Assembly: GCF_041248615.1 (NCBI RefSeq)
Contig: NZ_CP158426.1
DNA from: Escherichia coli
GTDB lineage: Bacteria > Pseudomonadota > Gammaproteobacteria > Enterobacterales > Enterobacteriaceae
Length of the DNA stretch: 64,000 nt
Strand: one strand, 5' to 3'
Part shown: positions 1,288 to 33,632 of the stretch, piece by piece
Numbering within the stretch: position 1 is the first letter of the stretch
Layout: each line of letters starts with the position of its first letter
Made by a program: the position numbers and the translations under genes
The notes under the pieces: model-generated
Told to the model about the DNA's origin: nothing
Databases searched by the model: none
Seen by the model: the letters and a program-made list of their open reading frames with translations, nothing else

Positions 1288-1838
1288 ATGAGTGAACAAA
1301 TCAAACAGGATATCGATCTGATTGAGATTTTATTTTATCTGAAGAAAAAGATTCGTGTTATCCTTTTTATTATAGCTATCTGTATGGCAATGGTGCTGTT
1401 GTTTCTGTATATCAATAAAGATAATATAAAAGTGACTTACAGTCTAAAAATAAACCAAACAACACCAGGCATACTTGTTAGCTGTGATAGCAATAATAAC
1501 TTTGCCTGTCAGACCACAATGACTGAAGATGTTATTCAGCGAATTACTACATTTTTTCACACCAGCCCAGATGTCAAGAACAGAGAAATAAAACTGGAAT
1601 GGTCAGGAGATAAGAGAGATTTACCAACTGCTGTACAAAAATGATATACCTGACCAGGAACTGGTCATTGTATCCGAACGGTGATGGCTGTGTCACTATA
1701 AGCTCACCAGAAATAAAAAATAAATATCCTGCTGCCATTTGCCTGGCTCTGGGATTTTTTCTAAGCATTGTGATTTCTGTAATGTTTTGCCTTGTCAAAA
1801 AAATGGTAGATGAATACCAACAAAACTCTGGGCAGTAA
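1288..1838 (+). pseudogene. ykgH: ykgH-like membrane protein, apparently split by a +1 frameshift at an A5 run (about 1637..1641)
   Basis: ORFs 1288..1644 and 1641..1838 each contain one hydrophobic helix; adding one A to the A5 run fuses them into a single ~184-aa product (...TAVQK-MIYLTRNW...). Could be a real frameshift, a sequencing error, or two short overlapping genes. Confidence 0.5.
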
Positions 1839-2776: not shown

Positions 2777-4196
2777 TCTTTTTCTCCTGCGCCTGATGTT
2801 TCTTAAACCAACTACGGAAACTCTCTCCGTCAGCTTCAGGAAGATCGCGTGCTTCCATCCAGTCGCTAATCGCGCCAAATTTGAGTGGTGTTTTGCCGCC
2901 ATTGATAAACCAGCTTGCCGCATGAGCGCCGGCCATCATCCCGACTTTCCACAATCCTGGATGACTATTGGCATAAGCGAACATTTTTATCGCCCGTTGC
3001 TCTGCTTTTGCGGTGATCCCTTTTTCAGCCATCACCCGACGATGACGCAAAATCAGTTTTGACAGCGGAATACGCACCGGACACACGTTGTCACAAGCAG
3101 TGCATAAAGAGCAGGCGTAGGGTAAATCTTTAAAATCTTTATAGCCGCCAAGTAGCGGAGAAATCACCGCACCAATTGGCCCTGGATAAATAGAGCCATA
3201 TCCATGACCGCCAATATGGCGATATGCCGGACAAGTATTCATACAAGCCCCGCAGCGAATACAGCGCAGCACATCCCGAAATTCAGAGGCCAGCACCTCA
3301 GAACGCCCGTTATCGACAATAACCAGATGAAACTCTTCAGGACCATCAACGTGCCCCGCTTCGCGCGGTCCTGTCAGCCAGGTGTTGTATCCCGTCAAAC
3401 GTGCACCAACGGCACTGCGCGCCAGCATGGTGATCAATACATCTACCTCGGCAAACGTGGGGGCAATACGCTCCATTCCCATCACTGCAATATGCGTTTT
3501 AGGCAGCGTGGTACACATTCGCGCATTACCTTCATTGGTCACCAGGCATACCGAACCGGTCTCTGCCACCGCGAAATTACAGCCGGTAATACCTATTTCA
3601 GCACTGAGGAAATCTTCGCGGATTTTTTGCCGGATGAATAAGGTCATTGCTTCAGGCGTTTCCGACCCCTCATAGCCCAGACGTTCGTGTAGCACCCGAC
3701 GGATCTGATGGCGATCTTTATGAATTGCCGGGACCACAACATGAGAGGGCGGATCTTGATCCAGCTGGAGAATGTATTCACCCAGATCGGTTTCAATCAC
3801 CTGAATGCCAGCATCCTGCAACACATGATTGACACCAATCTCTTCGGTCACCATCGATTTAGATTTCACCACCTTCCGGGCATTTTTGCGTTGGGCAACC
3901 TGTAAAATGTAGCGAGTGGCGTCTTCTTTAGTTTTTGCAAAATAGACGTGACCGCCGTTTTGCGTCACTTTTTCTGAGAGCTGGTACAGATAAGCGTCGA
4001 GATTACTCAGAACATGATCACGTATCTGGGCGGCCCGATCGCGCCACTCCTCCCAGTGCCCCAATTCATCGACCATTTTTTGCCGATTTGCCCCGATACG
4101 CTGCTGCGCGTTTGCCACCGCTTTGCGCATGATCGGATCTTCAATTTGCTGACGGATGCGTGTCTTAAAATCTGTATTACTGGTTTTGATCGACAT
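2769..4196 (-). CDS. ykgF: LutB-like iron-sulfur protein (4Fe-4S ferredoxin-type Cys clusters)
   Basis: 475-aa ORF with CxxCxxCxxxCP motifs (CIRCGACMNTCP, CSLCTACDNVCP). Confidence 0.9.
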   Translation of the reverse strand: MSIKTSNTDFKTRIRQQIEDPIMRKAVANAQQRIGANRQKMVDELGHWEEWRDRAAQIRDHVLSNLDAYLYQLSEKVTQNGGHVYFAKTKEDATRYILQVAQRKNARKVVKSKSMVTEEIGVNHVLQDAGIQVIETDLGEYILQLDQDPPSHVVVPAIHKDRHQIRRVLHERLGYEGSETPEAMTLFIRQKIREDFLSAEIGITGCNFAVAETGSVCLVTNEGNARMCTTLPKTHIAVMGMERIAPTFAEVDVLITMLARSAVGARLTGYNTWLTGPREAGHVDGPEEFHLVIVDNGRSEVLASEFRDVLRCIRCGACMNTCPAYRHIGGHGYGSIYPGPIGAVISPLLGGYKDFKDLPYACSLCTACDNVCPVRIPLSKLILRHRRVMAEKGITAKAEQRAIKMFAYANSHPGLWKVGMMAGAHAASWFINGGKTPLKFGAISDWMEARDLPEADGESFRSWFKKHQAQEKKNG

Positions 4197-4926: not shown

Positions 4927-5453
4927 AACTAATACTCCATTACTTCATGCCCATTTATGCCCGATGGTTCCCCCCTTCCGGGGGATCAATCATCAATAAA
5001 TATGGCGTTCTTTTTTAATTGGCTAGCAACATACCACCCCTCATTTGTATGACAAATGATAATCTTTCATCCAAACTTCAAATGCAATAACTAATTTTAT
5101 TTCTTTCGGCATCGCTCACATTTTATAGGGAAATCGACGATCATTTTTGGCATAAGAAATCCATTTAAAAAGGCTACATCCCTTATACCTATTCAGTGCT
5201 ACTTATTCAGGGGTTATTGAGATATACACTGATGGTGTACAAACAAAATCACCAACAATAATTACGTATCAAGTAATAATCGGCATTTTATTTAATTGAA
5301 GCAATTTAGTTTGCATTTTTATTTAAAAACTGAGCTAGAGTCCATCAGAAAAAAATATATAAAGCCCAAACCACCGTTGGAAATAGAAATAGTTGAAAGG
5401 CTCACAACTCCCGGAATGCGGATTATCTTTGACCTGATTTCTGGCGGTTTTAT

Positions 5454-6308
5454 TCAGGGTGCAAGCTGTCTGACCCTTTCCCGATATTCTCCCGGAGTAC
5501 AACCAAACTCGCGGACAAACGCCTTGTGAAAAGATGATTCACTGGCATAGCCTACTGACTCAGCGATCACCACAACAGGGAGCATTTCCCGGGAAAACAT
5601 CTGGGCCGCTATTTGTAGACGCAACTTTGTTAATACAGCTAGCGGCGTGGTTCCGGAAACATCACGGAAAAGCTGGGCAAAACTTGCCCGGGACATGTGG
5701 GCGATGCTGGCCAGCGATTCGACGGTCCAGGCGTGTCCTGGCATTTCCAGCATTTGCTGTATTACCGCACCAAGACGTGGATGCAGAAGCAAACTGAGAA
5801 TGTTTTTCTCTGTATTAACCTGTGCAATCCACTCACGCACCGCGAGGGTAAAGAATGTAGCGCAGATCTGGCTACACAGAGCATCCACTCCCGGCATTGC
5901 CGATCTGGATTCCTGTTGTAAAAACGGGATCGCCTCCCTCAGCCAGTTATATTCCACGCTATGGTTCACTGGTGCTACAAACAGCGTTTCCGGCAAAGAC
6001 GTTAAAAAATAACGCGCCGAATGTTGCAGCCGAAGAGTGCCACAGACAATACAGGTCGATTCATTATCGACATGACTCAGGCGATGAGCTGAATTTTGTG
6101 GTAGCAGGACCACATTTCCCGGGCGTAATGTAAAAATCTCTCCCGTCGGCATTTCCAGCTTCGCCGCTCCTTGCGTTAACGCATGCCAACGAATAACCGA
6201 CAATTCCCCGGCACCATGTGGAAGTTGCCAGTCACTTCCTAACACGCAATTCTTATCGATCGTTCCTTGTGGAGCGTTAAGCATCAACAAACGGCTAAGA
6301 GCATCCAT
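5454..6308 (-). CDS. rclR: AraC-family, HOCl-responsive activator of rclABC
   Basis: ORF 5454..6359 trimmed to Met18 (MDALSRLL...), giving 284 aa; C-terminal AraC helix-turn-helix; transcribed divergently from rclA. Confidence 0.85.
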   Translation of the reverse strand: MDALSRLLMLNAPQGTIDKNCVLGSDWQLPHGAGELSVIRWHALTQGAAKLEMPTGEIFTLRPGNVVLLPQNSAHRLSHVDNESTCIVCGTLRLQHSARYFLTSLPETLFVAPVNHSVEYNWLREAIPFLQQESRSAMPGVDALCSQICATFFTLAVREWIAQVNTEKNILSLLLHPRLGAVIQQMLEMPGHAWTVESLASIAHMSRASFAQLFRDVSGTTPLAVLTKLRLQIAAQMFSREMLPVVVIAESVGYASESSFHKAFVREFGCTPGEYRERVRQLAP

Positions 6309-6534
6309 ATCAGACTCCTGAGTAGTTTTTTGATTACAAACACCAACTATCTTAGTCAATAATTAATCTAATACCATCAAATAGTTAATCATGATTTTTG
6401 TTTTATGATTCTGATTAAGAAAAAGAAAATACCAGACGATAAGACAAAATATCAAGCGTTGTGAAGAAATGTTATTTGCTCTTTTGCGTCTATAGTCATG
6501 ATGTCAAATGAACGCGTTTCGACAGGAAATCATC

Positions 6535-7860
6535 ATGAATAAATATCAGGCAGTTATTATTGGTTTTGGCAAGGCTGGAAAAACATTAGCCGTCACGCTG
6601 GCAAAAGCAGGTTGGCGTGTGGCTCTCATCGAACAATCAAATGCAATGTATGGCGGGACCTGTATTAATATCGGCTGTATCCCAACCAAAACATTGGTTC
6701 ATGACGCACAGCAGCACACAGATTTTGTCCGTGCCATACAGCGTAAAAATGAAGTGGTTAATTTTTTACGTAATAAGAATTTTCATAATCTTGCGGATAT
6801 GCCCAATATCGACGTGATCGACGGCCAGGCGGAGTTTATCAATAATCATAGCCTGCGTGTTCATCGGCCTGAGGGAAATCTGGAAATTCATGGCGAGAAA
6901 ATTTTTATTAATACCGGTGCACAAACCGTGGTTCCGCCAATTCCTGGAATTACCACCACGCCAGGAGTATATGACAGCACCGGATTACTTAATCTAAAAG
7001 AATTGCCTGGGCATTTAGGTATTTTAGGCGGCGGATATATTGGCGTTGAGTTCGCCTCTATGTTCGCTAATTTTGGCAGCAAGGTAACCATTTTAGAAGC
7101 AGCTTCGCTGTTTTTGCCTCGGGAAGATCGGGATATTGCTGATAATATCGCGACGATTTTACGCGATCAGGGCGTCGATATTATCCTCAATGCCCATGTG
7201 GAGCGAATCAGTCACCATGAAAATCAAGTGCAAGTGCATAGCGAGCACGCCCAACTGGCGGTGGATGCACTGTTAATAGCTTCCGGTCGTCAACCGGCTA
7301 CCGCTTCGTTACATCCAGAAAATGCCAGTATCGCAGTAAACGAGCGCGGGGCAATTGTCGTTGACAAGCGATTACATACCACCGCAGACAATATTTGGGC
7401 GATGGGAGATGTTACCGGCGGGCTGCAATTTACTTATATTTCACTGGATGATTACCGCATTGTACGTGATGAGTTACTGGGTGAAGGCAAACGTAGTACT
7501 GATGATCGGAAAAATGTGCCTTATTCCGTATTTATGACACCGCCCCTGTCCAGGGTTGGTATGACAGAAGAACAAGCCAGAGAGAGTGGTGCTGATATTC
7601 AGGTGGTGACATTGCCTGTAGCTGCAATTCCGCGTGCCAGAGTGATGAATGATACTCGTGGGGTATTAAAAGCGATTGTTGATAATAAAACCCAACGTAT
7701 ATTAGGGGCATCACTGCTGTGTGTTGACTCCCACGAGATGATTAATATAGTGAAAATGGTGATGGATGCCGGGCTGCCTTATAGCATATTACGCGATCAG
7801 ATATTTACTCATCCGTCGATGAGCGAATCACTCAATGATCTATTTTCATTAGTCAAATAA
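6535..7860 (+). CDS. rclA: Pyridine nucleotide-disulfide oxidoreductase of the reactive-chlorine resistance operon
   Basis: ORF 6508..7860 trimmed to Met10 (441 aa); FAD-binding GxGxxG motif (IIGFGKAG) and redox-active CINIGC motif; AGGA ribosome-binding site upstream of 6535. Confidence 0.9.
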   Translation: MNKYQAVIIGFGKAGKTLAVTLAKAGWRVALIEQSNAMYGGTCINIGCIPTKTLVHDAQQHTDFVRAIQRKNEVVNFLRNKNFHNLADMPNIDVIDGQAEFINNHSLRVHRPEGNLEIHGEKIFINTGAQTVVPPIPGITTTPGVYDSTGLLNLKELPGHLGILGGGYIGVEFASMFANFGSKVTILEAASLFLPREDRDIADNIATILRDQGVDIILNAHVERISHHENQVQVHSEHAQLAVDALLIASGRQPATASLHPENASIAVNERGAIVVDKRLHTTADNIWAMGDVTGGLQFTYISLDDYRIVRDELLGEGKRSTDDRKNVPYSVFMTPPLSRVGMTEEQARESGADIQVVTLPVAAIPRARVMNDTRGVLKAIVDNKTQRILGASLLCVDSHEMINIVKMVMDAGLPYSILRDQIFTHPSMSESLNDLFSLVK

Positions 7861-7956
7861 ACTCAAAATCAGACGCCAGAACAAATATTCTGGCGTCTCA
7901 GAGAAAAGAATCTTATTAATTCTCTGTAACTCTATAAACTCTTAATCACTTCATTG

Positions 7957-8205
7957 ATGGTATTTTATATATTTAAAAAATCCGTTTTATTTGCAACACT
8001 ATTATCTGGCGTTATGGCATTTTCCACCAATGCAGATGATAAAATAATTCTGAAACATATCAGCGTCTCGTCAGTATCAGCATCACCGACAGTTCTGGAG
8101 GATGCCATTGCTGATATAGCCAGAAAATATAATGCTTCATCCTGGAAAGTCACATCGATGCGAATTGATAATAATTCAACCGCAACAGCAGTATTGTATA
8201 AATAA
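7957..8205 (+). CDS. rclB: Small periplasmic protein with signal peptide (DUF1471-type)
   Basis: ORF 7954..8205; first ATG at 7957; N-terminal signal peptide ending ...AFSTNA; sits between rclA and rclC. Confidence 0.8.
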   Translation: MVFYIFKKSVLFATLLSGVMAFSTNADDKIILKHISVSSVSASPTVLEDAIADIARKYNASSWKVTSMRIDNNSTATAVLYK

Positions 8206-8216
8206 GGATGTTCACA

Positions 8217-8810
8217 ATGGAAAAATACCTGCATCTGTTAAGTCGGGGAGATAAAATTGGCCTGACATTGATTCGTCTGAGTATTGCGATTGTTTTTATG
8301 TGGATTGGGTTATTAAAGTTTGTCCCTTACGAGGCAGACAGCATTACACCATTCGTCGCAAACAGTCCACTAATGTCGTTCTTTTATGAACACCCGGAAG
8401 ACTATAAACAGTATCTGACTCACGAAGGCGAATACAAACCAGAAGCAAGGGCATGGCAATCGGCCAATAATACCTATGGTTTTTCCAACGGTCTTGGCGT
8501 CGTGGAGGTGATTATTGCTCTGCTGGTTTTGGCTAATCCTGTCAATCGCTGGTTAGGTTTATTGGGAGGGCTGATGGCATTTACCACACCGTTGGTAACA
8601 CTCTCATTTTTAATCACCACCCCGGAGGCATGGGTACCCGCATTGGGTGACGCTCATCATGGTTTCCCTTATTTATCCGGTGCTGGTCGCCTGGTATTGA
8701 AAGATACTCTGATGCTGGCAGGTGCTGTCATGATAATGGCAGATTCGGCGCGGGAAATTCTTAAACAACGCAGTAATGAATCCAGTTCAACGTTAAAAAC
8801 TGAATATTGA
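8217..8810 (+). CDS. rclC: Inner-membrane protein (DUF417-type) of the rcl operon
   Basis: ORF 8208..8810 trimmed to MEKYLHLL (197 aa); AGGA 9 nt upstream; multiple hydrophobic helices. Confidence 0.85.
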   Translation: MEKYLHLLSRGDKIGLTLIRLSIAIVFMWIGLLKFVPYEADSITPFVANSPLMSFFYEHPEDYKQYLTHEGEYKPEARAWQSANNTYGFSNGLGVVEVIIALLVLANPVNRWLGLLGGLMAFTTPLVTLSFLITTPEAWVPALGDAHHGFPYLSGAGRLVLKDTLMLAGAVMIMADSAREILKQRSNESSSTLKTEY

Positions 8811-8843
8811 TAATCCGAACACTGTCTGTTGTTCACTTTTTCA

Positions 8844-8881
8844 GGCGTCAGGCCCCCTTTCTGATGATGAAGCCTGACGCC
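8844..8881. terminator. Hairpin (ggcgtcaggc ... gcctgacgcc) between convergent rclC and the aldo-keto reductase; candidate bidirectional terminator
   Basis: 10-bp perfect inverted repeat read from the sequence, in a convergent intergenic gap. Confidence 0.5.
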
Positions 8882-8969
8882 ATATTACCGGAGATATGAC
8901 AGAGTGAAGATCAATATCACTCCCCTGTTAAAAGATTCTTGTCGTCTCAGGTAAAATACATGATTAATA

Positions 8970-9854
8970 TCAATCATGTATTTTTACAGCAAGACAACCA
9001 CGAACAAATTCAGGATTAAAATGTTTTACCGACTCCCCAACATAACCCAAATCAAGCGAACTAATTTGTGCCATTTCTTTCTCTGTCAGTGAGAAATCCC
9101 AGATAGCAAAATTTTCTTCGATACGCTGTTGATGTGTCGATTTCGGAATAACGACCACTCCCCGTTGAATATTCCAACGCAGAATGACTTGAGAAATCGA
9201 TTTTTGATGGGCATCTGCAATACTCTGAAGCAGATTATTTTCAAAGGGTTTATGTCGTCCACCACCTAACGGAGCCCATGCTTCAGGCTGCACGTTATAA
9301 TACTTCATGGTTGCCAGCGCCTCTGGTTGGGCAAAATAGGGATGCAACTCGACCTGGTTGACCATCGGTTTAACTCTTACCGTTTCACAAAAGTTCGCCA
9401 GAACATGAGGATAGAAATTGGAAACCCCAATTGCTTTTAATTTGCCCTCTTCATAGGCATCTTCGAGTGCACGCCACGCACTGAAATAATCGCGCATAGC
9501 CTGGTGCAATAAATAGAGGTCGAAGTATTCTAGTCCCGATTTTTTTAATGATGCTTCAATACCTGCTTTTGCCGTATCCTGATTCAACATATCCTGCACC
9601 CACAATTTAGACGTTATAAATAACTCATCTCGGGTACATAAACCTTCAGATATAGCTTCACGAACGGCTTCACCGACGGCATCTTCATTACCGTATACCG
9701 CTGCAGTGTCGATGAGTCGATAACCCGTGCGGATAGCATTCAACACTGACTGTTTGCACACGTCTTTATCGGTAACCTGAAAAACACCAAATCCCATCAT
9801 CGGCATTTTCAGATTGTTACTTAATACGGAAAATTCCACTGTCAGTCCCTCCAT
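8970..9854 (-). CDS. Aldo-keto reductase (2,5-diketo-D-gluconate reductase-like)
   Basis: 294-aa ORF with an AKR fold signature (LIDTAAVYGNE, IGVSNF); paralogous to the ORF at 17221..18072; the real start may be the GTG 15 nt downstream, which follows a GGAGG. Confidence 0.8.
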   Translation of the reverse strand: MEGLTVEFSVLSNNLKMPMMGFGVFQVTDKDVCKQSVLNAIRTGYRLIDTAAVYGNEDAVGEAVREAISEGLCTRDELFITSKLWVQDMLNQDTAKAGIEASLKKSGLEYFDLYLLHQAMRDYFSAWRALEDAYEEGKLKAIGVSNFYPHVLANFCETVRVKPMVNQVELHPYFAQPEALATMKYYNVQPEAWAPLGGGRHKPFENNLLQSIADAHQKSISQVILRWNIQRGVVVIPKSTHQQRIEENFAIWDFSLTEKEMAQISSLDLGYVGESVKHFNPEFVRGCLAVKIHD

Positions 9855-10462
9855 TAGGTATGAACAATGAGTCTACGTTAAAACGTAACCTCAAATTAGT
9901 ATGTGGATTTTGATATCACTTATGCAAAAAATTCATTAATAATGTAGGACTGAAACCTCTCTATTTTTGGGGCAATGAAGCAGACGCTATCAGTGCTTTT
10001 GCCTTGGGACTTGCTGTTTTTGATACACTTAAGGCCCAGGACATAACGAAAATGTGCGATATTACAAAGAATTAACGGAGAATGTGATGATCAGGCAGAA
10101 GATTCTACAGCAGCTCCTGGAGTGGATTGAGTGCAATCTTGAGCACCCTATTTCAATCGAAGATATCGCACAGAAATCTGGCTACAGCAGACGCAACATC
10201 CAGCTTCTGTTCCGAAATTTCATGCATGTGCCTTTGGGAGAATACATTCGCAAACGAAGGCTTTGTCGTGCCGCCATTCTTGTCCGACTCACCGCGAAAT
10301 CTATGCTTGATATTGCACTCTCTTTACATTTTGACTCACAGCAGTCATTCAGCCGCGAATTTAAAAAGTTATTCGGCTGCTCTCCCCGTGAATACCGCCA
10401 CCGTGATTATTGGGATCTCGCAAATATCTTCCCTTCTTTTTTAATACGTCAACAGCAAAAGA

Positions 10463-10467
10463 CGGAG
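10463..10467. repeat. 5-bp target-site duplication (CGGAG), left copy
   Basis: Identical 5-mer immediately flanks both ends of IS2. Confidence 0.7.
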
Positions 10468-10478
10468 TGGATTTGCCC

Positions 10479-11384
10479 CTATATTTCCAGACACCTGTTA
10501 TCACTTAACCCATTACTGGCCTGCTGCCGCAGATATTCCCGTGGCGAGCGATAACCCAGTGCACTATGCGGATGCCATTCGTTATAATGCTCGAACGCCT
10601 CTGCAAGGTTCTTTGCTGCCGTTAACCCGTCTGGTTTAGGCATGATACTGATGTAGTCACGCTTTATCGTTTTCACGAAGCTCTCTGCTATGCCGTTACT
10701 CTCCGGACTCCGCACCGCCGTGTTCTTCGGTTCAAGCCCCAATATCCGGGCAAACTGCCGTGTTTCATTAGCCCGGTAGCATGAACCATTATCCGTCAGC
10801 CACTCTACTGGAGACGCCGGAAGCTCGTTGCCGAAGCGGCGTTCCACCGCTCCCAGCATGACGTCCTGTACTGTTTCACTGTCGAAGCCGCCCGTAGTGA
10901 CTGCCCAGTGCAGTGCCTCACGGTCACAGCAGTCCAGCGCGAACGTGACTCGCAGTTTTTCTCCGTTATCACAGCGGAACTCGAACCCGTCAGAGCACCA
11001 TCGTTGATTGCTTTCTTTCACGGCCACTTTGCCAGTATGTGCCCGTTTCGATGGCGGTACAGCGGTTTTTCGCTCAAGCAACAGCGCATTCTGGCGCATG
11101 ATCCGGTAAACACGTTTGGCATTGATCGCAGGCGTACCATCAAGTTCGGCCTGTCTGCGAAGCAGCGCCCATACCCGACGATAACCATACGTGGGCAGCT
11201 CTCCGATAACATGGTGTATACGGAGAAGCACATCCGTATCATCTGAGTGACGGCTGCGGCGACCATCTTTCCAGTCATCGGTTCGTCTGAGAATTACGTG
11301 CAACTGCGCACGCGACACCCGGAGACAACGGCTGACTAAGCTTACTCCCCATCCCCGGGCAATAAGGGCGCGTGCGCTATCCAC
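10479..11384 (-). CDS. insD: IS2 OrfB (InsD), DDE transposase catalytic component
   Basis: 301-aa ORF starting [15 protein letters not shown]...; overlaps insC as expected for programmed -1 frameshifting in this family. Confidence 0.9.
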
Positions 11385-11707
11385 TTTTTTGCACGCCCGT
11401 ATTCAACGGCTTCTTTAAGGAGTTCATTTTCCATCGTTTTTTTGCCGAGCAGGCGCTGGAGTTCTTTAATCTGCTTCATGGCAGCAGCAAGTTCAGAGGC
11501 AGGAACGACCTGCTCTCCTGCGGCCACAGCAGTAAGACTTCCCTCCTGGTATTGCTTGCGCCAGAGAAATAACTGGCTGGCTGCCACACCGTGTTGCCGG
11601 GCAACAAGGGAGACCTTCATTCCCGGTTCAAAACTCTGCTGAACAATAGCGATCTTTTCCTGTGTAGTACGCCGTCTGCGTTTCTCCGGTCCTAAGACAT
11701 CAATCAT
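11342..11707 (-). CDS. insC: IS2 OrfA (InsC), helix-turn-helix transposase component
   Basis: ORF 11342..11752 trimmed to [13 protein letters not shown] (121 aa). Confidence 0.9.
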
Positions 11708-11798
11708 CTGCTCTCCAATGACTAGTCTAAAAACTAGTATTAAGACTATCACTTATTTAAGTGATATTGGTTGTCTGGAGATTCATGGGGCCAGTCTA

Positions 11799-11803
11799 CG
11801 GAG
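11799..11803. repeat. 5-bp target-site duplication (CGGAG), right copy
   Basis: Matches the left copy at 10463..10467. Confidence 0.7.
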
Positions 11804-12404
11804 TGTAGATTAGTCAACTTTCCTGAGACACCTATTTTTGGCAATTCATTTAAATATGATATTGAAGTATCGAATAAATCACCGGATGAAGAAGTCAAAC
11901 TGCGACGTCATCATTTAGCCAGATGTATGAAGAATTTTAAGACGGATATCTATTTCGTCTCCACATTCGAACCGTCAACAAAATCGGTCGATTTGCTCAC
12001 AGTTGAAACTTTTGCCGGTACGGTATGCAAACAAACCGATTCAGAGATGTCGAAAGAGTGGACAATTAACCGAGGACTGTATGCCTCTTTCCGCTATGAA
12101 GGTGAGTGGGAGCACTACCCTGAATGGGCGCGAAACCTCTATCTGATGGAATTACCTGCCAGGGGGTTAGCCAGAGTGAACGGCAGTGATATTGAGCGAT
12201 TTTATTACAATGAAAACTTCGTCGAAATTGATAGCAATAACATTGTTTGCGAAATTTTTATCCCCGTTCGCCCGGTTTAGCCTGTAAATCCATCACATAA
12301 GATTTACCCTACCCTGCCACCGTCTAATCGGTACCAGGGTAGGTATTCAGTAAATAATGGCACTGCGCATGTCAACGCCATTATTATTTATTACATCGTC
12401 GTTT

Positions 12405-17205: not shown

Positions 17206-20129
<2,924 letters not shown>

Positions 20130-20211
20130 CTAAACTTTCAGGAGATTTATTATGAATAAACGTATCCTCACGATTATGCCATTCTTCTTACCGATATTCT
20201 GACACACATCA

Positions 20212-21138
20212 TTAACTTTCTATTTTTACTCTTTTCTCCACCATAAAATCAATAAAAGCACGAACTTTAGAGGGCATTCTCACCCGTGATGAAACATATA
20301 TATAAAATCCAGGAAATGAAACGGCCCAATCCTCAAGAATCGGCTGTAACTTGCCCGCATTGATATGTTCAGCGATTGCAAAATCCAGATGTTGAATGAT
20401 ACCCGTTCCATTCAGCGCCATTCGTATCATGCTTTCGTCATCATTAGAAATATACTTACCTGAAACCTCTATTTCGAACTCTTCATTACCCCCCACAACA
20501 TTAGAAAACTCCCATGCAGAGAGTGCACCGCTACTTTTATGCCGCAACCGAAGGCAATTATGGTTACTCAGTTCCTGAGGCGTTTCAGGAATACCGTGTT
20601 CTTTTAAATAATCTGGCGATGCCACAGTAACCAGTTTAATAAGCGGAGAAACAGGAACGGCAGTCATATGCTCATCCAGTCCTTGCTCAAGACGTATGCC
20701 CACATCACAGCCGTCCGCAATAATGTTAGATAAACCGTCATCCATAATGAGTTCTATCTTTGTTTTGGGGTAACGAGTAAGAAACTCGCCAATATGAGGC
20801 TCAACAAGCATCCGTGCTGCAACACGGGAGGAATTTATTCTCAACAGGCCTGTAGGTTCAAGTTGGGTATCACCAACATCTTTCAAAGCATCATCAATTT
20901 GCCCCAAAGCCGACACCAGCACTTCATACAGACGCTGTCCTTCCTCAGTAAGCGACATATTGCGGGTCGTACGGTATATCAGCTTGGTGTTAAGACGTTC
21001 CTCAAGAGATTTTAAATTCTGGGACAATGCGGCCCGCGTAATACCCATTTCAGAAGCGGCTCTGGAAAAACTGCCGGCACGAACAATAAGCGCAAACCAG
21101 GCAAGAGAAGGCAAAATTGAAGGCTCTATTTTCATCAT
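20212..21138 (-). CDS. LysR-family transcriptional regulator, divergent from the hydrolase/oxidoreductase pair
   Basis: ORF 20212..21201 trimmed to MMKIEPSILPSL... (308 aa); LysR helix-turn-helix. Confidence 0.85.
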   Translation of the reverse strand: MMKIEPSILPSLAWFALIVRAGSFSRAASEMGITRAALSQNLKSLEERLNTKLIYRTTRNMSLTEEGQRLYEVLVSALGQIDDALKDVGDTQLEPTGLLRINSSRVAARMLVEPHIGEFLTRYPKTKIELIMDDGLSNIIADGCDVGIRLEQGLDEHMTAVPVSPLIKLVTVASPDYLKEHGIPETPQELSNHNCLRLRHKSSGALSAWEFSNVVGGNEEFEIEVSGKYISNDDESMIRMALNGTGIIQHLDFAIAEHINAGKLQPILEDWAVSFPGFYIYVSSRVRMPSKVRAFIDFMVEKRVKIES

Positions 21139-21294
21139 TGTAAACCTTAACTTAACACTGTGATAGATATTAGACCATTGATGATAACCAATACAAGTCA
21201 TACTATTACGCCGTTCTCGATATGAACACGAATGCCAGTTGCGGATAATAGAAATGATATTTAAATCTGTTTAGGCAAATCCCCGGAGCTTGAA

Positions 21295-22215
21295 ATGAAA
21301 ACTGTTTCGATAAAACATACTTACTGGGATATAGCTGCTGATATCTATTTCCCTGACGATTTTAATAGTGAAAAAAAGTATCCTGCCATTATCAGCGCCC
21401 ATCCAATTGGAAGCTGCAAAGAACAGACATCGGGTAGTGTGTATGGTGCCGCCCTGGCAAAAGCTGGCTTTATCGTCATTGCTTTTGATGCCAGTTTTCA
21501 GGGAAGCAGCGGTGGAGAACCGCGTTATCTGGAAGATCCAACAATGCGAGTAAAAGACTTCAGCATTGTCGTTGATTACCTTACCACCTTACCTTACGTT
21601 GATGCCGGGCGTATTGGTGTACTGGGTATTTGTGGTGGAGGTGGATATGCCATTAATGCCGCAATGACAGAACGTCGAATTAAAGCTATTGGTACTGTCA
21701 CGGGTGCAAACTACGGGCGTCTTATGCGTGAGGGATTTACAGCGTTTAATCCTATCGGAGCACTCGAAGCGATGGCGCAACAAAGAACAGACGAAGCTAA
21801 CGGCGCAAAACTTCGCGTAGATGATTTACTCCCCTCTTCTCCGGATGCAGCTCTTGAAGCGGGATTAACAGAAATAGACCTTTTTGAAGCCACAGAATAT
21901 TATCGTTCGCCACGAGGCTGTGCACCTAATGGGGTAAATCGTTCGCTATTCTCACATCAGACTGTTGCCGTGGGTTGGGATGCATTTCATCTTGCAGAAG
22001 TCCTGTTAACTCAACCAATAATGGTTGTGGTGGGCGATAGAGTGGGCGCATTTGGTGCCTACCGTGACGGCTGCGAAATTATTGGCCGCGCTGCCTCAAA
22101 ACATAAAGAGCTGGTCGTGGTTGAAGGTTATTCACATTACGACCTGTATGATAAGCCAGAACCTGTGAAACAGGCACTCGAAAAATTAATTCCTTTTTAT
22201 AAAACACATTTGTAA
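21295..22215 (+). CDS. Alpha/beta hydrolase with a Cys nucleophile elbow (dienelactone-hydrolase-like), cytoplasmic
   Basis: 306-aa ORF; GICGGGG in the position where serine hydrolases carry GxSxG; no signal peptide. Confidence 0.75.
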   Translation: MKTVSIKHTYWDIAADIYFPDDFNSEKKYPAIISAHPIGSCKEQTSGSVYGAALAKAGFIVIAFDASFQGSSGGEPRYLEDPTMRVKDFSIVVDYLTTLPYVDAGRIGVLGICGGGGYAINAAMTERRIKAIGTVTGANYGRLMREGFTAFNPIGALEAMAQQRTDEANGAKLRVDDLLPSSPDAALEAGLTEIDLFEATEYYRSPRGCAPNGVNRSLFSHQTVAVGWDAFHLAEVLLTQPIMVVVGDRVGAFGAYRDGCEIIGRAASKHKELVVVEGYSHYDLYDKPEPVKQALEKLIPFYKTHL

Positions 22216-22387
22216 TAATCTTACAGGGAGATTCCTTATCTCCCTGACATTTATCCTTTATTGACTACACAACAACAATAAAATTACTCAAAAAGAATTC
22301 TATTAAAGGAAAAAAGCATCAAAAAGTAGCAACTCAACTTATTAAGATTATACGCATTAAAATCAGATAAACATTTGAGGTATTGTT

Positions 22388-23530
22388 ATGACAAATAAAC
22401 ACCCATCATTGTTTTCTCCTTTTATGCTGACAGAAAAAATAAAGCTACGTAATCGTATCGTTATGGCCCCTATGACGACCTGGTCAGCGAATCCTGATGG
22501 AACCATCTCTGAGCAAGAACTCGAATTTTATAAACGCCGCTCACAAAATGTTGGTTTAGTAATAACAGGATGTACCTATGTCACGCCAAGCGGCATTGGG
22601 TTTACTCATGAATTTGCCGCGTATGACGACCGTTTCATTAACAGCCTTGAAAAGTTAGCAGCGGCAGCCAAAAGTGGCGGTGCTCCGGCTATTTTGCAGA
22701 TTTTCCACGCCGGTAATAAAGCCATCCCGGAGCTTGTACCAAATAACGATGTTATTAGTGCCAGCGCATCAAGCGTAAAATCTGGTGACTTTATGAAGAG
22801 AGTGGTACAAAGCAGGGAAATGACTGAAAACGAAATTCAGGAAACCATTAGAGCATTCGGAGATGTCACAAAAAGGGCGATTAAAGCAGGTTTTGATGGC
22901 ATTGAACTTCATGGTGCGCACGGATTCCTTCTACAGAATTTCTTCTCCCCTCTATTTAACCAGCGTAATGACCGATGGGGAGGAGATCTCGAAAGACGTA
23001 TGCGATTCCCGCTGGCCGTATTACAGGAAGTAAAAAATGTAGTCTATGAATATGCGACAAAGCCCTTTGCCATCGGTTACAGAATATCTCCTGAAGAATC
23101 TGCAACAGGGGGGCTGCGGATAGAGGATACTTATAAACTCCTTGATCGGCTCATTGCATCCGGTATTTCGTATATACATACCTCGCTGGTCAGTATTAAC
23201 GATAGCTACCCTGTTGAGTCGCCAAATGGCCCCCGAACTATTGAATTGATTTTAAATCATATTGCAGGCAGAGTGCCGGTAATCGCTGCAGGTAAAATAC
23301 GCACACCGTCTCAGGCTCAAGAAGCAATTTCCACTGGCCTGCCACTTGTTGCGATCGGTAAAGGGCTGGTGATAAATCCAGAATGGGTGACTTTAGCTGA
23401 ATCAGGTAGAAGCCATGAAATTCAAACAACCCTTAATCCACAACTTGTTCCTGAATTAACCATTCCGGATAAACTATGGGATCAAATTCAGGCATCGAAA
23501 GGAACTGGCTGGTTTCCGTTAATGGATTAA
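22388..23530 (+). CDS. Old Yellow Enzyme-family NADH:flavin oxidoreductase (ene-reductase)
   Basis: 380-aa ORF with a typical OYE N-terminus (...VMAPMTT...) and TIM-barrel flavoprotein length. Confidence 0.8.
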   Translation: MTNKHPSLFSPFMLTEKIKLRNRIVMAPMTTWSANPDGTISEQELEFYKRRSQNVGLVITGCTYVTPSGIGFTHEFAAYDDRFINSLEKLAAAAKSGGAPAILQIFHAGNKAIPELVPNNDVISASASSVKSGDFMKRVVQSREMTENEIQETIRAFGDVTKRAIKAGFDGIELHGAHGFLLQNFFSPLFNQRNDRWGGDLERRMRFPLAVLQEVKNVVYEYATKPFAIGYRISPEESATGGLRIEDTYKLLDRLIASGISYIHTSLVSINDSYPVESPNGPRTIELILNHIAGRVPVIAAGKIRTPSQAQEAISTGLPLVAIGKGLVINPEWVTLAESGRSHEIQTTLNPQLVPELTIPDKLWDQIQASKGTGWFPLMD

Positions 23531-24865: not shown

Positions 24866-24915
24866 TTCAAAATTCGACGAATTAACGATATTTGTCTGAT
24901 TAATAATCAGACCGG

Positions 24916-24955
24916 ATTAATGTTGGTGTATTTATTACACCAGCATTAATTTTCC
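24916..24955 (+). terminator. Rho-independent terminator candidate after ykgMO (attaatgttggtgta ... tacaccagcattaat, then T-run)
   Basis: Inverted repeat followed by TTTT, read from the sequence. Confidence 0.55.
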
Positions 24956-25879
24956 TGAGGATGTATCTTCCTGTTCATTTAAGGTCAACTGCCTGACGTT
25001 TCTCTCCGAATATTCCATTATATTAATGTTGACTTGTTGACCAGGTGCGCCCTGTATGCTGGCATCAACTCTCTTTTAGACTGAACACGCCACTCAGTTT
25101 CCTCCCTTTGCGACGCAGCCTGCATTTACACTCAAACGGTTAAGATGATAAATGTGGTAAATCTGTTGGTACTGACATAAAAACGTTTACGCCACAGGAA
25201 CGGCCTGATCCACCGGTAACCCCATCGCCGACGTTCGAGTGCCAGTTAGAGTAACGCGCACAGATGACTGAATGCAGTGCCCTGGCAAAGAGGCCATCGT
25301 TCCTGTGACAACTGGCAGTCTTCGTTTAACTTCACTTAATTTGGCTCTTAGGGGGCTTACCGGACAGATGACGTACTTACACCTGTTTAATTTTTCATCA
25401 CTTATTGGGATGAACACCCATAACCATTTTGTGCGGCATGTTAATCCATTAAAACACCTTACTGATTGGCAAATCATCTTTAATTATGACTCATGATAGT
25501 TTTATATTCTATTTCTTATCATTTAAACTTGTTTTTTTACTAGTCCATTACACAACACATTAAGACTATTCCTAACACCTCAGGGCAAAGTTCCTGGCTA
25601 ATATAAAATGCAAGTAAGAATTGAACGTTATATTGCCAATAACCTTATGAAACTGAATGTCTTTTTCTTCTTATCAAAAAAGCAATATTTTCATTTTTTG
25701 TAAATATTGACTTAACCATGGAATTCCTTTTCTGTTCACATATTGACACTCATCAGGAAAAAAACATAAATTTAAACCTAATCGAAATAATTAAAACTTA
25801 ATCTCGTTTAACCTATATTGATATGTGCTACGTATCTTATTTACTTCCGATTTACTAAAGAAACTGAATGTACCTGTAA

Positions 25880-33384: not shown

Positions 33385-33632
33385 ATATGCAATAATTAAT
33401 TGCACTGCCCCGCCAGCTATAATCGCGGGGCTTCGTTTTTCAGGGATAACAAAACCCGAAACTTCTTCCATCTGCCAGCAACAATGCCTCTTCCTCTATA
33501 GTGTTCTCCGGATCTACAGCATCCTGAAGTAGCGCGATGTACTCACGGGCTATCTGCTTCAGAAAGTAAAAAGCAATGTTTTTAACCTATAAAAATGGCG
33601 CTGCATTTGCGCCATTTTTATTATTCAATGCA

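What the first reader, a model, noticed from the sequence alone, without database searches (positions are those of the whole stretch)
5454..8810. Complete rclR-rclABC reactive-chlorine resistance locus
All four genes are full length with the expected divergent regulator arrangement. This is a known system, listed as context for the neighbouring redox island.
Basis: established knowledge. Interest (0 to 1): 0.25.

Follow-up and report, generated by a model that had tools for sequence, protein, structure and literature searches.

The report
Known E. coli rcl oxidant-defence locus
This is the well-studied E. coli rclR-rclABC gene cluster that protects the cell from bleach-like immune oxidants, so it is ordinary, except that in this strain the small gene rclB has ATA instead of its normal ATG start codon, a change found in only 2 of about 5,100 E. 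coli genomes.

Summary
Window 5454-8810 runs exactly from the rclR stop codon to the rclC stop codon of an E. coli chromosome. It is 100% identical to strains NRZ14408 and isolate 362, and the locus is present in about 5,050 of 5,426 complete E. coli genomes. All four products pass NCBI's curated equivalog cut-offs, have K-12 lengths (284/441/78/197 aa) and differ from K-12 by 1-2 residues. The catalytic and sensing cysteines are present. rclR is divergent from rclABC across a 226-bp control region. The system is already known: RclR is an oxidant-activated AraC-type activator, RclA is an NAD(P)H-dependent HOSCN/Cu(II) reductase, and the mechanism of RclB and RclC is unknown.

One correction to "all four genes are full length": the conserved rclB start codon ATG is ATA here (G to A at 7971). 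Only 2 of 5,150 records share this. Orthologues in other genera show this ATG is the ancestral start. An Escherichia-only in-frame ATG four codons upstream has no Shine-Dalgarno. RclB output is therefore probably much reduced.

Noticed in passing: the rclA-rclB spacer carries a second copy of the conserved rclA-promoter box. It has the same box to -10 spacing in other genera, which also have a terminator after rclA. This suggests rclBC has its own promoter.

The parts
5454..6308 (-). rclR: AraC-family, oxidant-activated transcriptional activator. 284 aa, with an N-terminal Cupin_6 sensing domain and a C-terminal HTH_18 domain.
   Evidence: NCBIfam NF040475 equivalog scores 554.6 bits against a cut-off of 400. 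Pfam finds Cupin_6 and HTH_18. The protein has 2 aa differences from K-12 (L111V, T242M) and the same length. Cys21 and Cys89 are present. The start is ATG with an AGGAG Shine-Dalgarno, dG -6.9. RefSeq annotates rclR at this position.
6309..6534 (.). Divergent rclR/rclA control region, 226 bp. It contains a conserved 35-nt box at 6433-6467, followed after 23 nt by the -10 hexamer TATAGT (6491-6496), with no good -35. The rclA Shine-Dalgarno AGGAAA lies at about 6523-6528.
   Evidence: The region differs from K-12 by 6 substitutions and one 1-nt indel in 226 bp. Within the box, 21 positions are invariant across four loci from three genera, and the -10 hexamer (TATAGT/TATACT/TATAAT) sits at a fixed spacing. 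That the box is the RclR operator is an inference. No footprint was found in the literature searched.
6535..7860 (+). rclA: cytoplasmic FAD-dependent pyridine-nucleotide-disulfide oxidoreductase, 441 aa. It is an HOSCN reductase and a Cu(II) reductase.
   Evidence: NF040477 equivalog scores 869.1 bits against a cut-off of 740. It matches the solved E. coli RclA structures 6KGY/6KYY/6KOD at E = 6e-295 over residues 1-441. Pfam finds Pyr_redox_2 and Pyr_redox_dim. The active-site Cys43-x4-Cys48 motif and the C-terminal His426/Glu431 are present. It has 2 aa differences from K-12.
7861..7968 (+). rclA-rclB spacer, 108 bp. It contains a perfect palindrome at 7871-7898 lying inside a 35-nt box (7870-7904) that resembles the rclA-promoter box.
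   Evidence: The RNA hairpin has dG -19.3 kcal/mol and z -5.96. The palindrome is unique in the window, with 0.01 copies expected by chance. The box matches 17 of the 21 invariant positions of the PrclA box. Only 2 of 127,932 window positions reach that level, and the other is the PrclA box itself. The block is conserved in L011 and L005. No U-run follows the hairpin on the + strand.
7969..8205 (+). rclB: small periplasmic DUF1471 (YdgH/BhsA/McbA-like) protein. The precursor is 78 aa with a Sec-type signal peptide, MFKK-SVLFATLLSGVMAF-STNA|DD. Its conserved start codon is ATA in this strain. An in-frame ATG at 7957 (and a TTG at 7954) lies upstream.
   Evidence: NF040474 scores 150.6 bits against a cut-off of 100, and Pfam finds PF07338. 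The ATA is read directly, and K-12 has ATG at this codon. The ATA 42-mer is exact in 2 full-length records and the ATG 42-mer in about 4,994. Met at this position is conserved in homologues. Orthologous loci have an in-frame stop upstream of this ATG. The Shine-Dalgarno duplex is -3.1 kcal/mol for 7969 and +1.9 for 7957.
8217..8810 (+). rclC: DUF417 inner-membrane protein, 197 aa, without cysteines.
   Evidence: NF040476 equivalog scores 341.0 bits against a cut-off of 275. Pfam DUF417 matches at 2.2e-80. It has 1 aa difference from K-12 (T82S). Hydrophobic segments are present. It has its own AAGGA Shine-Dalgarno, dG -6.3, 11 nt after the rclB stop.

Best explanation
The region is the chromosomal rclR-rclABC locus of Escherichia coli, in the same arrangement as in K-12.

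How it works. Steps taken from the literature are shown experimentally. Steps about this strain are inferred.
- RclR is an AraC-family activator. Oxidation of Cys21 and Cys89 by reactive chlorine species or by HOSCN switches it on, and it then raises transcription from the rclA promoter more than 100-fold.
- RclA uses NAD(P)H, FAD and the Cys43/Cys48 redox pair to reduce HOSCN to thiocyanate at a near-diffusion-limited rate. It also reduces Cu(II).
- RclB (periplasm) and RclC (inner membrane) add to HOCl and HOSCN resistance by a mechanism that is still unknown. They probably act together.

What is strain-specific. The conserved rclB initiation codon is ATA instead of ATG. I infer that RclB synthesis is strongly reduced. 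It would be limited to the roughly 1-2% initiation expected from AUA, plus whatever the Shine-Dalgarno-less AUG four codons upstream provides. rclR, rclA and rclC are unaffected, and rclC has its own Shine-Dalgarno.
For: Identity and arrangement:
- The stretch is 100% identical to two RefSeq E. coli chromosomes that annotate rclR, rclA, rclB and rclC at these positions.
- All four products exceed the NCBIfam equivalog cut-offs.
- Lengths are the same as in K-12, with 1-2 aa differences per protein.
- RclA matches PDB 6KGY at E = 6e-295.
- The key residues RclR C21/C89 and RclA C43/C48/H426/E431 are present.

Mechanism, from papers:
- RclR is activated through Cys21 and Cys89 and induces rclABC (PMC7464077).
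- RclA reduces HOSCN with kcat/KM of 9e7 M-1 s-1. C43A and C48A mutants are inactive, and HOSCN induces rclA more than 256-fold (PMC9335216).
- RclA also has Cu(II) reductase activity (PMC7527725).
- Deletion mutants of rclB and rclC are HOSCN-sensitive, and their mechanism is unknown (PMC12096828).

The rclB start codon:
- The codon at 7969 is ATA.
- The variant occurs in only 2 of 5,150 full-length records, which come from two different isolates, one German and one Spanish.
- Met at this position is conserved in all homologues aligned, down to 35-54% identity.
- Orthologous loci have an in-frame stop upstream and a GGAA or AGGAAA Shine-Dalgarno before this ATG.
- The distance from the -10-like hexamer to the start codon is 36 nt in both E. 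coli and L005.
- AUA initiates at 1-2% (range 0.02-3%) of AUG.
Against: No expression or phenotype data exist for this strain.

The true RclB start has not been mapped experimentally in any paper I could read. Gene callers used for the ENA and Logan assemblies choose the upstream ATG, giving the 82-aa form MVFYMFKK, and that ATG is intact here. Initiation there would give a slightly longer signal peptide and an identical mature protein.

RefSeq (PGAP) treats the gene as intact.

The original RclR paper (Parker 2013, PMC3820890) could not be read, so statements about RclR rest on secondary sources.
Confidence: 0.93

Rival explanations
1. The locus is fully intact. RclB is translated normally from the in-frame ATG at 7957, or that ATG was always the real start, so the ATG-to-ATA change is just a silent-in-effect Met5Ile substitution in the signal peptide n-region.
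For: ATG 7957 is present and in frame in both the window and K-12. The 82-aa form is what several gene callers predict across Escherichia. The leader is AU-rich and weakly structured. The n-region MVFYIFKK would still be a workable signal peptide (inference).
Against: There is no Shine-Dalgarno complementarity upstream of 7957 (dG +1.9 against -3.1 for 7969). The MVFY extension exists only in Escherichia. Orthologues in other genera start at the K-12 position, with an in-frame stop upstream. If the codon were an ordinary internal Met it would be expected to vary, yet it is ATG in about 4,994 of 5,150 records and Met in every homologue aligned except the window.
Confidence: 0.3
2. The ATA is a sequencing or assembly error and the real sequence is ATG.
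For: The variant is very rare, in 2 of 5,150 records, and lies in an AT-rich run.
Against: The same base is present in two independent complete assemblies from different countries, with different chromosome sizes: NRZ14408 at 5.34 Mb and isolate 362, Madrid, at 4.86 Mb. It is also in the window itself. It is a substitution, not a homopolymer-length error.
Confidence: 0.03
3. The genes are paralogues or look-alikes rather than the rcl system itself. For example, they could be a MerA-type hypothiocyanite reductase, or the UPEC rcrARB island, whose RcrB is an RclC homologue.
For: RclA also scores 598 bits against the hypothiocyanous acid reductase MerA model, and RclC belongs to the same DUF417 family as RcrB.
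Against: The MerA-type model's cut-off (650 bits) is not reached, whereas the RclA cut-off is. Synteny with K-12 is exact: ykgEFG - rclR - rclABC - ykgA/IS3. Nucleotide identity to the K-12 genes is 98-99%.
Confidence: 0.01

Closest known systems
E. coli K-12 MG1655 rclR (b0305) - rclA (b0304) - rclB (b0303) - rclC (b0301)
   Same: Gene order, orientation and lengths (284/441/78/197 aa) are the same. Nucleotide identity is 98.1-99.3%, with 1-2 aa differences per protein. The 226/225-bp control region, the spacer palindrome and the flanking ykgEFG genes are also shared.
   Different: The rclB start codon is ATA instead of ATG, and A replaces T at 7929 in the -10-like hexamer of the spacer. The downstream neighbour is an intact aldo/keto reductase, where K-12 has only the ykgQ pseudogene remnant.
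Orthologous rclR-rclABC loci of other Enterobacteriaceae (L005/L006; RclA 73% and RclB 54% identical)
   Same: They share the same four genes, the same divergent arrangement, the conserved promoter box upstream of rclA and the related box upstream of rclB.
   Different: These loci have a canonical intrinsic terminator directly after rclA and a good -10 (TATTAT) 23 nt after the rclB-upstream box. E. coli lacks the terminator and has a degenerate hexamer there.
UPEC rcrARB (RcrR repressor, RcrB = RclC homologue)
   Same: It is a DUF417 membrane protein that confers HOCl resistance under a redox-sensing regulator (PMC12096828; PMC9600549, listed).
   Different: It is a different locus with a different regulator (a repressor rather than an AraC-type activator), and it has no RclA or RclB partner. 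The window genes meet the RclC equivalog model and K-12 synteny.
Pseudomonas aeruginosa RclR-RclX, and the RclA-type HOSCN reductases of Gram-positive bacteria (Har, MerA)
   Same: The RclR homologue responds to HOCl and HOSCN. RclA homologues are widespread HOSCN reductases (PMC7950407, PMC9335216).
   Different: P. aeruginosa RclR controls a peroxiredoxin-like RclX, not RclABC. Gram-positive bacteria have RclA alone. The full RclA+B+C set is restricted to Enterobacteriaceae.

Membership tests
RclR (NCBIfam NF040475, reactive chlorine-specific AraC-family regulator) | Full-length match above the curated equivalog cut-off, with a Cupin_6 N-terminal domain and an AraC-type HTH C-terminal domain | tested here: met
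   554.6 bits against a cut-off of 400, model positions 1-283 of 284. Pfam finds Cupin_6 at residues 2-162 and HTH_18 at 199-278.
RclR | Redox-sensing cysteines Cys21 and Cys89 | tested here: met
   Cysteines are at positions 21, 86, 89, 145, 149 and 270. The role of Cys21 and Cys89 is taken from PMC7464077, citing Parker 2013.
RclR | Oxidant-dependent activation of rclABC transcription | not testable with these tools
   This needs an induction assay, such as qRT-PCR of rclA with and without HOCl or HOSCN in wild-type and rclR-deleted backgrounds.
RclA (NF040477; flavoprotein disulfide reductase, HOSCN/Cu(II) reductase) | Equivalog-level match and identity with the solved E. coli RclA structure | tested here: met
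   869.1 bits against a cut-off of 740. PDB 6KGY/6KYY/6KOD match at E = 6e-295 over residues 1-441.
RclA | Active-site CxxxxC (Cys43/Cys48), which is required for HOSCN reduction, plus the C-terminal His-Glu dyad of the dimer interface | tested here: met
   The motifs GGTC43INIGC48IP and FTH426PSMSE431 are present. The requirement for C43 and C48 is from PMC9335216.
RclB (NF040474; DUF1471 periplasmic protein) | Family match, signal peptide, and position between rclA and rclC | tested here: met
   150.6 bits against a cut-off of 100, and PF07338. The n-h-c signal peptide with a TNA|DD cleavage site is read from the sequence. Gene order is shown.
RclB | Canonical initiation codon at the conserved start | tested here: not met
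   The codon at 7969-7971 is ATA. It is ATG in about 4,994 of 5,150 E. coli records and in orthologues of other genera.
RclC (NF040476; DUF417 inner-membrane protein) | Equivalog-level match, hydrophobic membrane segments, and position immediately downstream of rclB | tested here: met
   341.0 bits against a cut-off of 275. DUF417 matches at 2.2e-80. Kyte-Doolittle segments are found. The gap after rclB is 11 nt and carries rclC's own Shine-Dalgarno.
rcl locus architecture | rclR transcribed divergently from rclA-rclB-rclC, at the K-12 chromosomal position next to ykgEFG | tested here: met
   The same architecture is seen in another genus, L005.

The most novel reading that the evidence does not exclude
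rclBC may not be simply the distal part of an rclABC operon. It may have its own RclR-type promoter in the rclA-rclB spacer.

Evidence for this reading:
- A 35-nt box at 7870-7904 repeats the conserved rclA-promoter box. It matches 17 of 21 invariant positions and is unique among about 128,000 window positions.
- In other genera the box is followed after exactly 23 nt by a -10 hexamer (TATTAT), the same geometry as at PrclA.
- Those genera also place an intrinsic terminator between rclA and rclB.
- One locus carries rclBC alone.

Escherichia has lost the terminator and weakened the -10. This could explain the published, unexplained 10-fold lower rclB and rclC mRNA.

Together with this, the ATA start codon in this lineage would be a natural near-null rclB allele, usable to separate RclB function from RclC function.
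Probability: 0.35. Interest if true: 0.35.

Novelty: already known. Interest (0 to 1): 0.12.

Why it matters
As filed, it matters little. It is a correct annotation of a well-characterised E. coli stress locus and serves as context.

Two small points could be useful to people who work on the system.
- This lineage is a naturally occurring rclB start-codon mutant, found in 2 of about 5,100 genomes. RclB is required for full HOSCN and HOCl resistance, but its mechanism is unknown.
- The rclA-rclB spacer carries a second copy of the conserved promoter box. This gives a concrete, testable explanation for the reported discrepancy between rclA and rclBC transcript levels, and a candidate operator sequence for RclR, which I could not find described.

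Tried and rejected
- Reading the primary RclR paper (Parker 2013, PMC3820890): it is not held, so RclR biochemistry is cited through PMC7464077, PMC9335216 and PMC7527725.
- Rfam scan of the whole window: nothing in or near the locus, only IS009 and one tRNA elsewhere.
- Generic sigma-70 and terminator scan: promoter-like hits were no more frequent than in shuffles, and PrclA was missed because it lacks a -35. The only strong hairpin, at 7871-7898, was reported on the minus strand because the U-run is on that side.
- Direct-repeat search in the control region: no families, only weak inverted repeats.
- Word-indexed protein search with RclB: it returned only Escherichia sequences. The exhaustive HMMER search was needed to reach other genera.
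- Ungapped PWM built from four PrclA boxes: it ranks the rclB-upstream box second in E. coli, K-12 and L011, but does not recover it in L005 or L007 and recovers it only weakly in L010. Cross-genus support therefore rests on the alignment, the invariant-position count and the conserved 23-nt spacing, not on the PWM.
- Reading the spacer palindrome as a conserved RNA hairpin: rejected as the main explanation. L010 lacks the left arm, and the L005 changes are not compensatory.
- Identity-band counting with an 80-nt query: considered and dropped because four K-12/window differences fall in that span. A 42-nt query containing only the start-codon difference was used instead, in both allelic versions.
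- Sequencing error and paralogue explanations: rejected (see the rival explanations).
Full report
**1. What is at 5454-8810**

Six-frame ORF listing shows one long ORF on the minus strand (5454-6359) and three on the plus strand (6508-7860, 7954-8205, 8208-8810). Megablast of window 5300-9000 against 5,426 complete E. coli genomes finds the stretch in 5,180 genomes. In 5,047 of them at least 80% of the query is covered, always at 95-100% identity. Two records are 100% identical: NZ_LT599825.1 (strain NRZ14408) and NZ_OW967178.1 (isolate 362).

The RefSeq annotation of the identical record, transferred to window coordinates, gives the four genes below:
- rclR 5454-6308 (-)
- rclA 6535-7860 (+)
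- rclB 7969-8205 (+)
- rclC 8217-8810 (+)

The window is an E. coli chromosome. It is base-for-base identical to NRZ14408 from position 1 to 43,982 and diverges after that.

**2. Membership tests**

All four products exceed NCBI's curated equivalog cut-offs:

| Protein | Score (bits) | Cut-off (bits) |
|---|---|---|
| RclR | 554.6 | 400 |
| RclA | 869.1 | 740 |
| RclB | 150.6 | 100 |
| RclC | 341.0 | 275 |

- Pfam gives Cupin_6 + HTH_18 for RclR, Pyr_redox_2/Pyr_redox_dim for RclA, YdgH/BhsA-like for RclB and DUF417 for RclC.
- RclA matches the solved E. coli RclA structures 6KGY/6KYY/6KOD at E = 6e-295 over all 441 residues.
- Against K-12 MG1655 the four genes have identical lengths (284/441/78/197 aa), no internal stops, 98.1-99.3% nucleotide identity and 1-2 amino-acid differences each. 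The 226-bp divergent control region differs from K-12 at 6 substitutions and one 1-nt indel.
- The functionally defined residues are present: RclR Cys21 and Cys89, RclA Cys43-x4-Cys48 and His426/Glu431. RclB and RclC have no cysteines, as published.
- Shine-Dalgarno complementarity supports the annotated starts of rclR (-6.9 kcal/mol), rclA (-4.3) and rclC (-6.3).

**3. How it works**

This section is established knowledge, cited from papers.
- RclR is an AraC-family activator specific for reactive chlorine species. Oxidation of Cys21 and Cys89 activates it and induces rclA, rclB and rclC 100- to 500-fold (PMC7464077, summarising Parker 2013). It is also strongly activated by HOSCN, with rclA induced more than 256-fold (PMC9335216).
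- RclA is a flavoprotein disulfide reductase. It reduces HOSCN to SCN- with NADH at kcat/KM = 9e7 M-1 s-1 by a ping-pong mechanism through Cys43/Cys48. It also has Cu(II) reductase activity that protects against HOCl plus copper (PMC7527725).
- RclB (periplasmic, DUF1471) and RclC (inner membrane, DUF417) are each needed for full HOCl and HOSCN resistance. Their mutants behave alike, and their mechanism is explicitly stated to be unknown (PMC12096828).

Applying this to the window is an inference from near-identity to K-12.

**4. The one departure: the rclB start codon**

At the annotated rclB start the window reads ATA, where K-12 reads ATG. This is a G-to-A change at 7971.

*How rare it is.* I used a 42-nt query (7941-7982) in which this is the only difference between K-12 and the window.
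- The ATA version is matched exactly and over its full length by only two records, NRZ14408 and isolate 362 from Madrid. The other two hits at 99% identity or above are 27-nt partial matches.
- 5,148 records differ from the ATA version.
- The ATG version is matched exactly by 4,996 records, two of them partial.
- The two carriers are different isolates with chromosomes of 5.34 and 4.86 Mb, so this is a lineage allele and not a sequencing error.
- RefSeq nevertheless annotates rclB as intact from the ATA in both carriers.

*Which start is real.* An in-frame ATG (7957) and TTG (7954) lie four and five codons upstream in both K-12 and the window. Some gene callers use the ATG, giving the 82-aa form. 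Four lines of evidence favour 7969 as the conserved start.
- Met at this column is present in every Escherichia homologue and in distant homologues found by an exhaustive HMMER search, at 35-54% identity. The MVFY extension occurs only in Escherichia.
- In an orthologous rclR<->rclABC locus of another genus (L005; RclA 73% identical) and in an rclBC-only locus (L007), the ATG at this position is preceded by an in-frame stop and by a GGAA or AGGAAA Shine-Dalgarno.
- Anti-Shine-Dalgarno pairing is -3.1 kcal/mol with 6-nt spacing for 7969, but +1.9 for 7957 and +1.6 for 7954.
- The distance from the upstream -10-like hexamer to this codon is 36 nt in both E. coli and L005.

AUA initiates at about 1-2% of AUG (range 0.02-3% across constructs) in E. 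coli (bioRxiv 10.1101/063800). I therefore infer, at about 60%, that RclB output is strongly reduced in this lineage. The alternative, at about 30%, is that ATG 7957 compensates and yields the same mature protein after signal-peptide cleavage. rclC should not be affected, because it has its own Shine-Dalgarno 11 nt after the rclB stop.

**5. Noticed while checking: the rclA-rclB spacer**

- Ten bases after the rclA stop there is a perfect palindrome, AGACGCCAGAA-caaata-TTCTGGCGTCT, at 7871-7898. Its RNA fold has dG -19.3 kcal/mol and z = -5.96. It is unique in the window and is not followed by a U-run on the coding strand.
- The block is much better conserved than the rest of the spacer, both in an E. 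albertii-like locus (L011) and in another genus (L005).
- Aligning the rclR-rclA control regions of four loci from three genera reveals a 35-nt box (window 6433-6467) with 21 invariant positions. It is followed after exactly 23 nt by the -10 hexamer TATAGT, TATACT or TATAAT, with no -35. This layout is expected for an activator-dependent promoter.
- The spacer box (7870-7904) matches the PrclA box at 21 of 35 positions, including 17 of the 21 invariant positions. Of 127,932 positions on both strands of the window, only the PrclA box itself and this site reach 17. A PWM built from the four PrclA boxes ranks the spacer box second in the window, in K-12 and in L011.
- Upstream of rclB in the other lineages, the box is again followed after 23 nt by a -10-like hexamer: TATTCT in L011, TATTAT in L005, TATTAT in L010 and TATTTA in L007. 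E. coli has a degenerate hexamer at that position, TACTCT in K-12 and AACTCT in this window.
- Three non-Escherichia loci place a canonical intrinsic terminator directly after rclA. One locus has rclBC without rclA, next to its own Cupin_6/AraC regulator.
- The palindrome is not conserved as a structure. L010 lacks the left arm, and the changes in L005 are not compensatory.

Together these observations suggest that rclBC ancestrally has its own RclR-type promoter, and that Escherichia lost the intervening terminator. This would account for the published observation that rclB and rclC mRNA is about ten-fold lower than rclA mRNA. [quoted passage not shown]

There are caveats. The ungapped PWM fails in L005 and L007. 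Only a handful of loci were examined. The Escherichia sequences are close relatives. I also could not read the primary RclR paper, so the site may already have been described, although searches of the held literature found no description.

**6. Verdict**

- It is wrong in one detail. rclB lacks its conserved ATG in this strain.
- Novelty: already known.
- Interest: low, 0.12.
- The most novel reading not excluded is the internal rclBC promoter together with a natural rclB start-loss allele. I give it a probability of about 0.35, and it would be of modest interest if true.

Noticed in passing
window 7870-7904 (palindrome 7871-7898); L005 2902-2936; L010 187-221; L011 2914-2948: The rclA-rclB spacer carries a second copy of the conserved rclA-promoter box. 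It matches 17 of 21 invariant positions and is unique among about 128,000 window positions. In other genera a -10-like hexamer follows after the same 23-nt gap as at PrclA. This may be an RclR-type internal promoter for rclBC, which could explain the published 10-fold lower rclBC mRNA.
   Followed up: partly
L005 2858-2884; L010 about 144-166; L008 about 3054-3078: Orthologous loci outside Escherichia have a canonical intrinsic terminator (GC stem plus a T-run) immediately after the rclA stop. E. coli and the E. albertii-like locus lack it, as a roughly 50-nt gap in the alignment.
   Followed up: partly
window 7929: The window has A where K-12 has T inside the -10-like hexamer of the spacer (AACTCT against TACTCT). 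This further weakens an already poor hexamer. Its population frequency was not measured.
   Followed up: no
L007 (Logan ERR12069621 contig), 3001-3814: An rclB-rclC pair occurs without rclA. It lies downstream of betB/betA-like genes, followed by a histidine kinase and a separate Cupin_6/AraC (RclR-like) regulator on the opposite strand. So rclBC can exist as an independent unit.
   Followed up: no
L008/L009 (NCBI GCA_016503095.1 and GCA_016505545.1; mrkH-type neighbours, probably Klebsiella): Only a remnant of rclB remains. Its N-terminus is unrelated and the called ORF overlaps the end of rclA. No rclC gene was called, although an rclC-like start (ATGGAAAAATATCTTCG) is visible at L008 3243.
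   Followed up: no
window 8970-9839 (-): An intact DkgA-like aldo/keto reductase lies directly downstream of rclC. K-12 has only the 129-bp ykgQ pseudogene remnant at this position.
   Followed up: partly
window 10087-12280: A Rob-like AraC + GyrI-like regulator gene, the ykgA homologue, is split by an IS3-family element (10479-11707). The HTH half is at 10087-10467 and the GyrI-like half at 11792-12280. In K-12, IS3A sits next to truncated ykgA and eaeH.
   Followed up: partly
hit H3, NZ_CP139953.1 (strain Nord1): rclA is interrupted by an IS1A insertion in this human isolate, so it is a natural rclA knock-out. In addition, about 246 of 5,426 complete genomes give no match to the locus at all.
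   Followed up: no
154 and 72 matches on records typed as plasmids, e.g. NZ_CP132549.1 (XL1-Blue, 242 kb): The rcl locus appears on some plasmid records. The XL1-Blue example is probably the F' proAB-lac episome, which would carry this chromosomal segment. That is an inference and was not checked.
   Followed up: no
window 43983 onward; tRNA at 44154-44226 (-): The window is identical to NRZ14408 up to 43,982 and then goes out of register. The tRNA-Thr lies about 120 bp further along than in NRZ14408, so the window comes from a close relative rather than from that assembly, or there is an indel near a ykgR/LysR pseudogene cluster.
   Followed up: no
window 1288-1838, 24900-25125, 39636-40763: In the 100%-identical RefSeq record, three neighbouring genes are marked as pseudogenes: a frameshifted hypothetical gene at the ykgH position, frameshifted ykgL, and an MFS transporter with an internal stop.
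   Followed up: no
window 33427-33627 (-): Rfam IS009 family match (187.8 bits) between ykgJ and yagU. It is the only non-tRNA RNA-family hit in the window.
   Followed up: no
window 17221-23530: This block holds two further aldo/keto reductases, two LysR regulators, an alpha/beta hydrolase and an NADH-dependent flavin oxidoreductase, between fdeC and ykgR.
   Followed up: no
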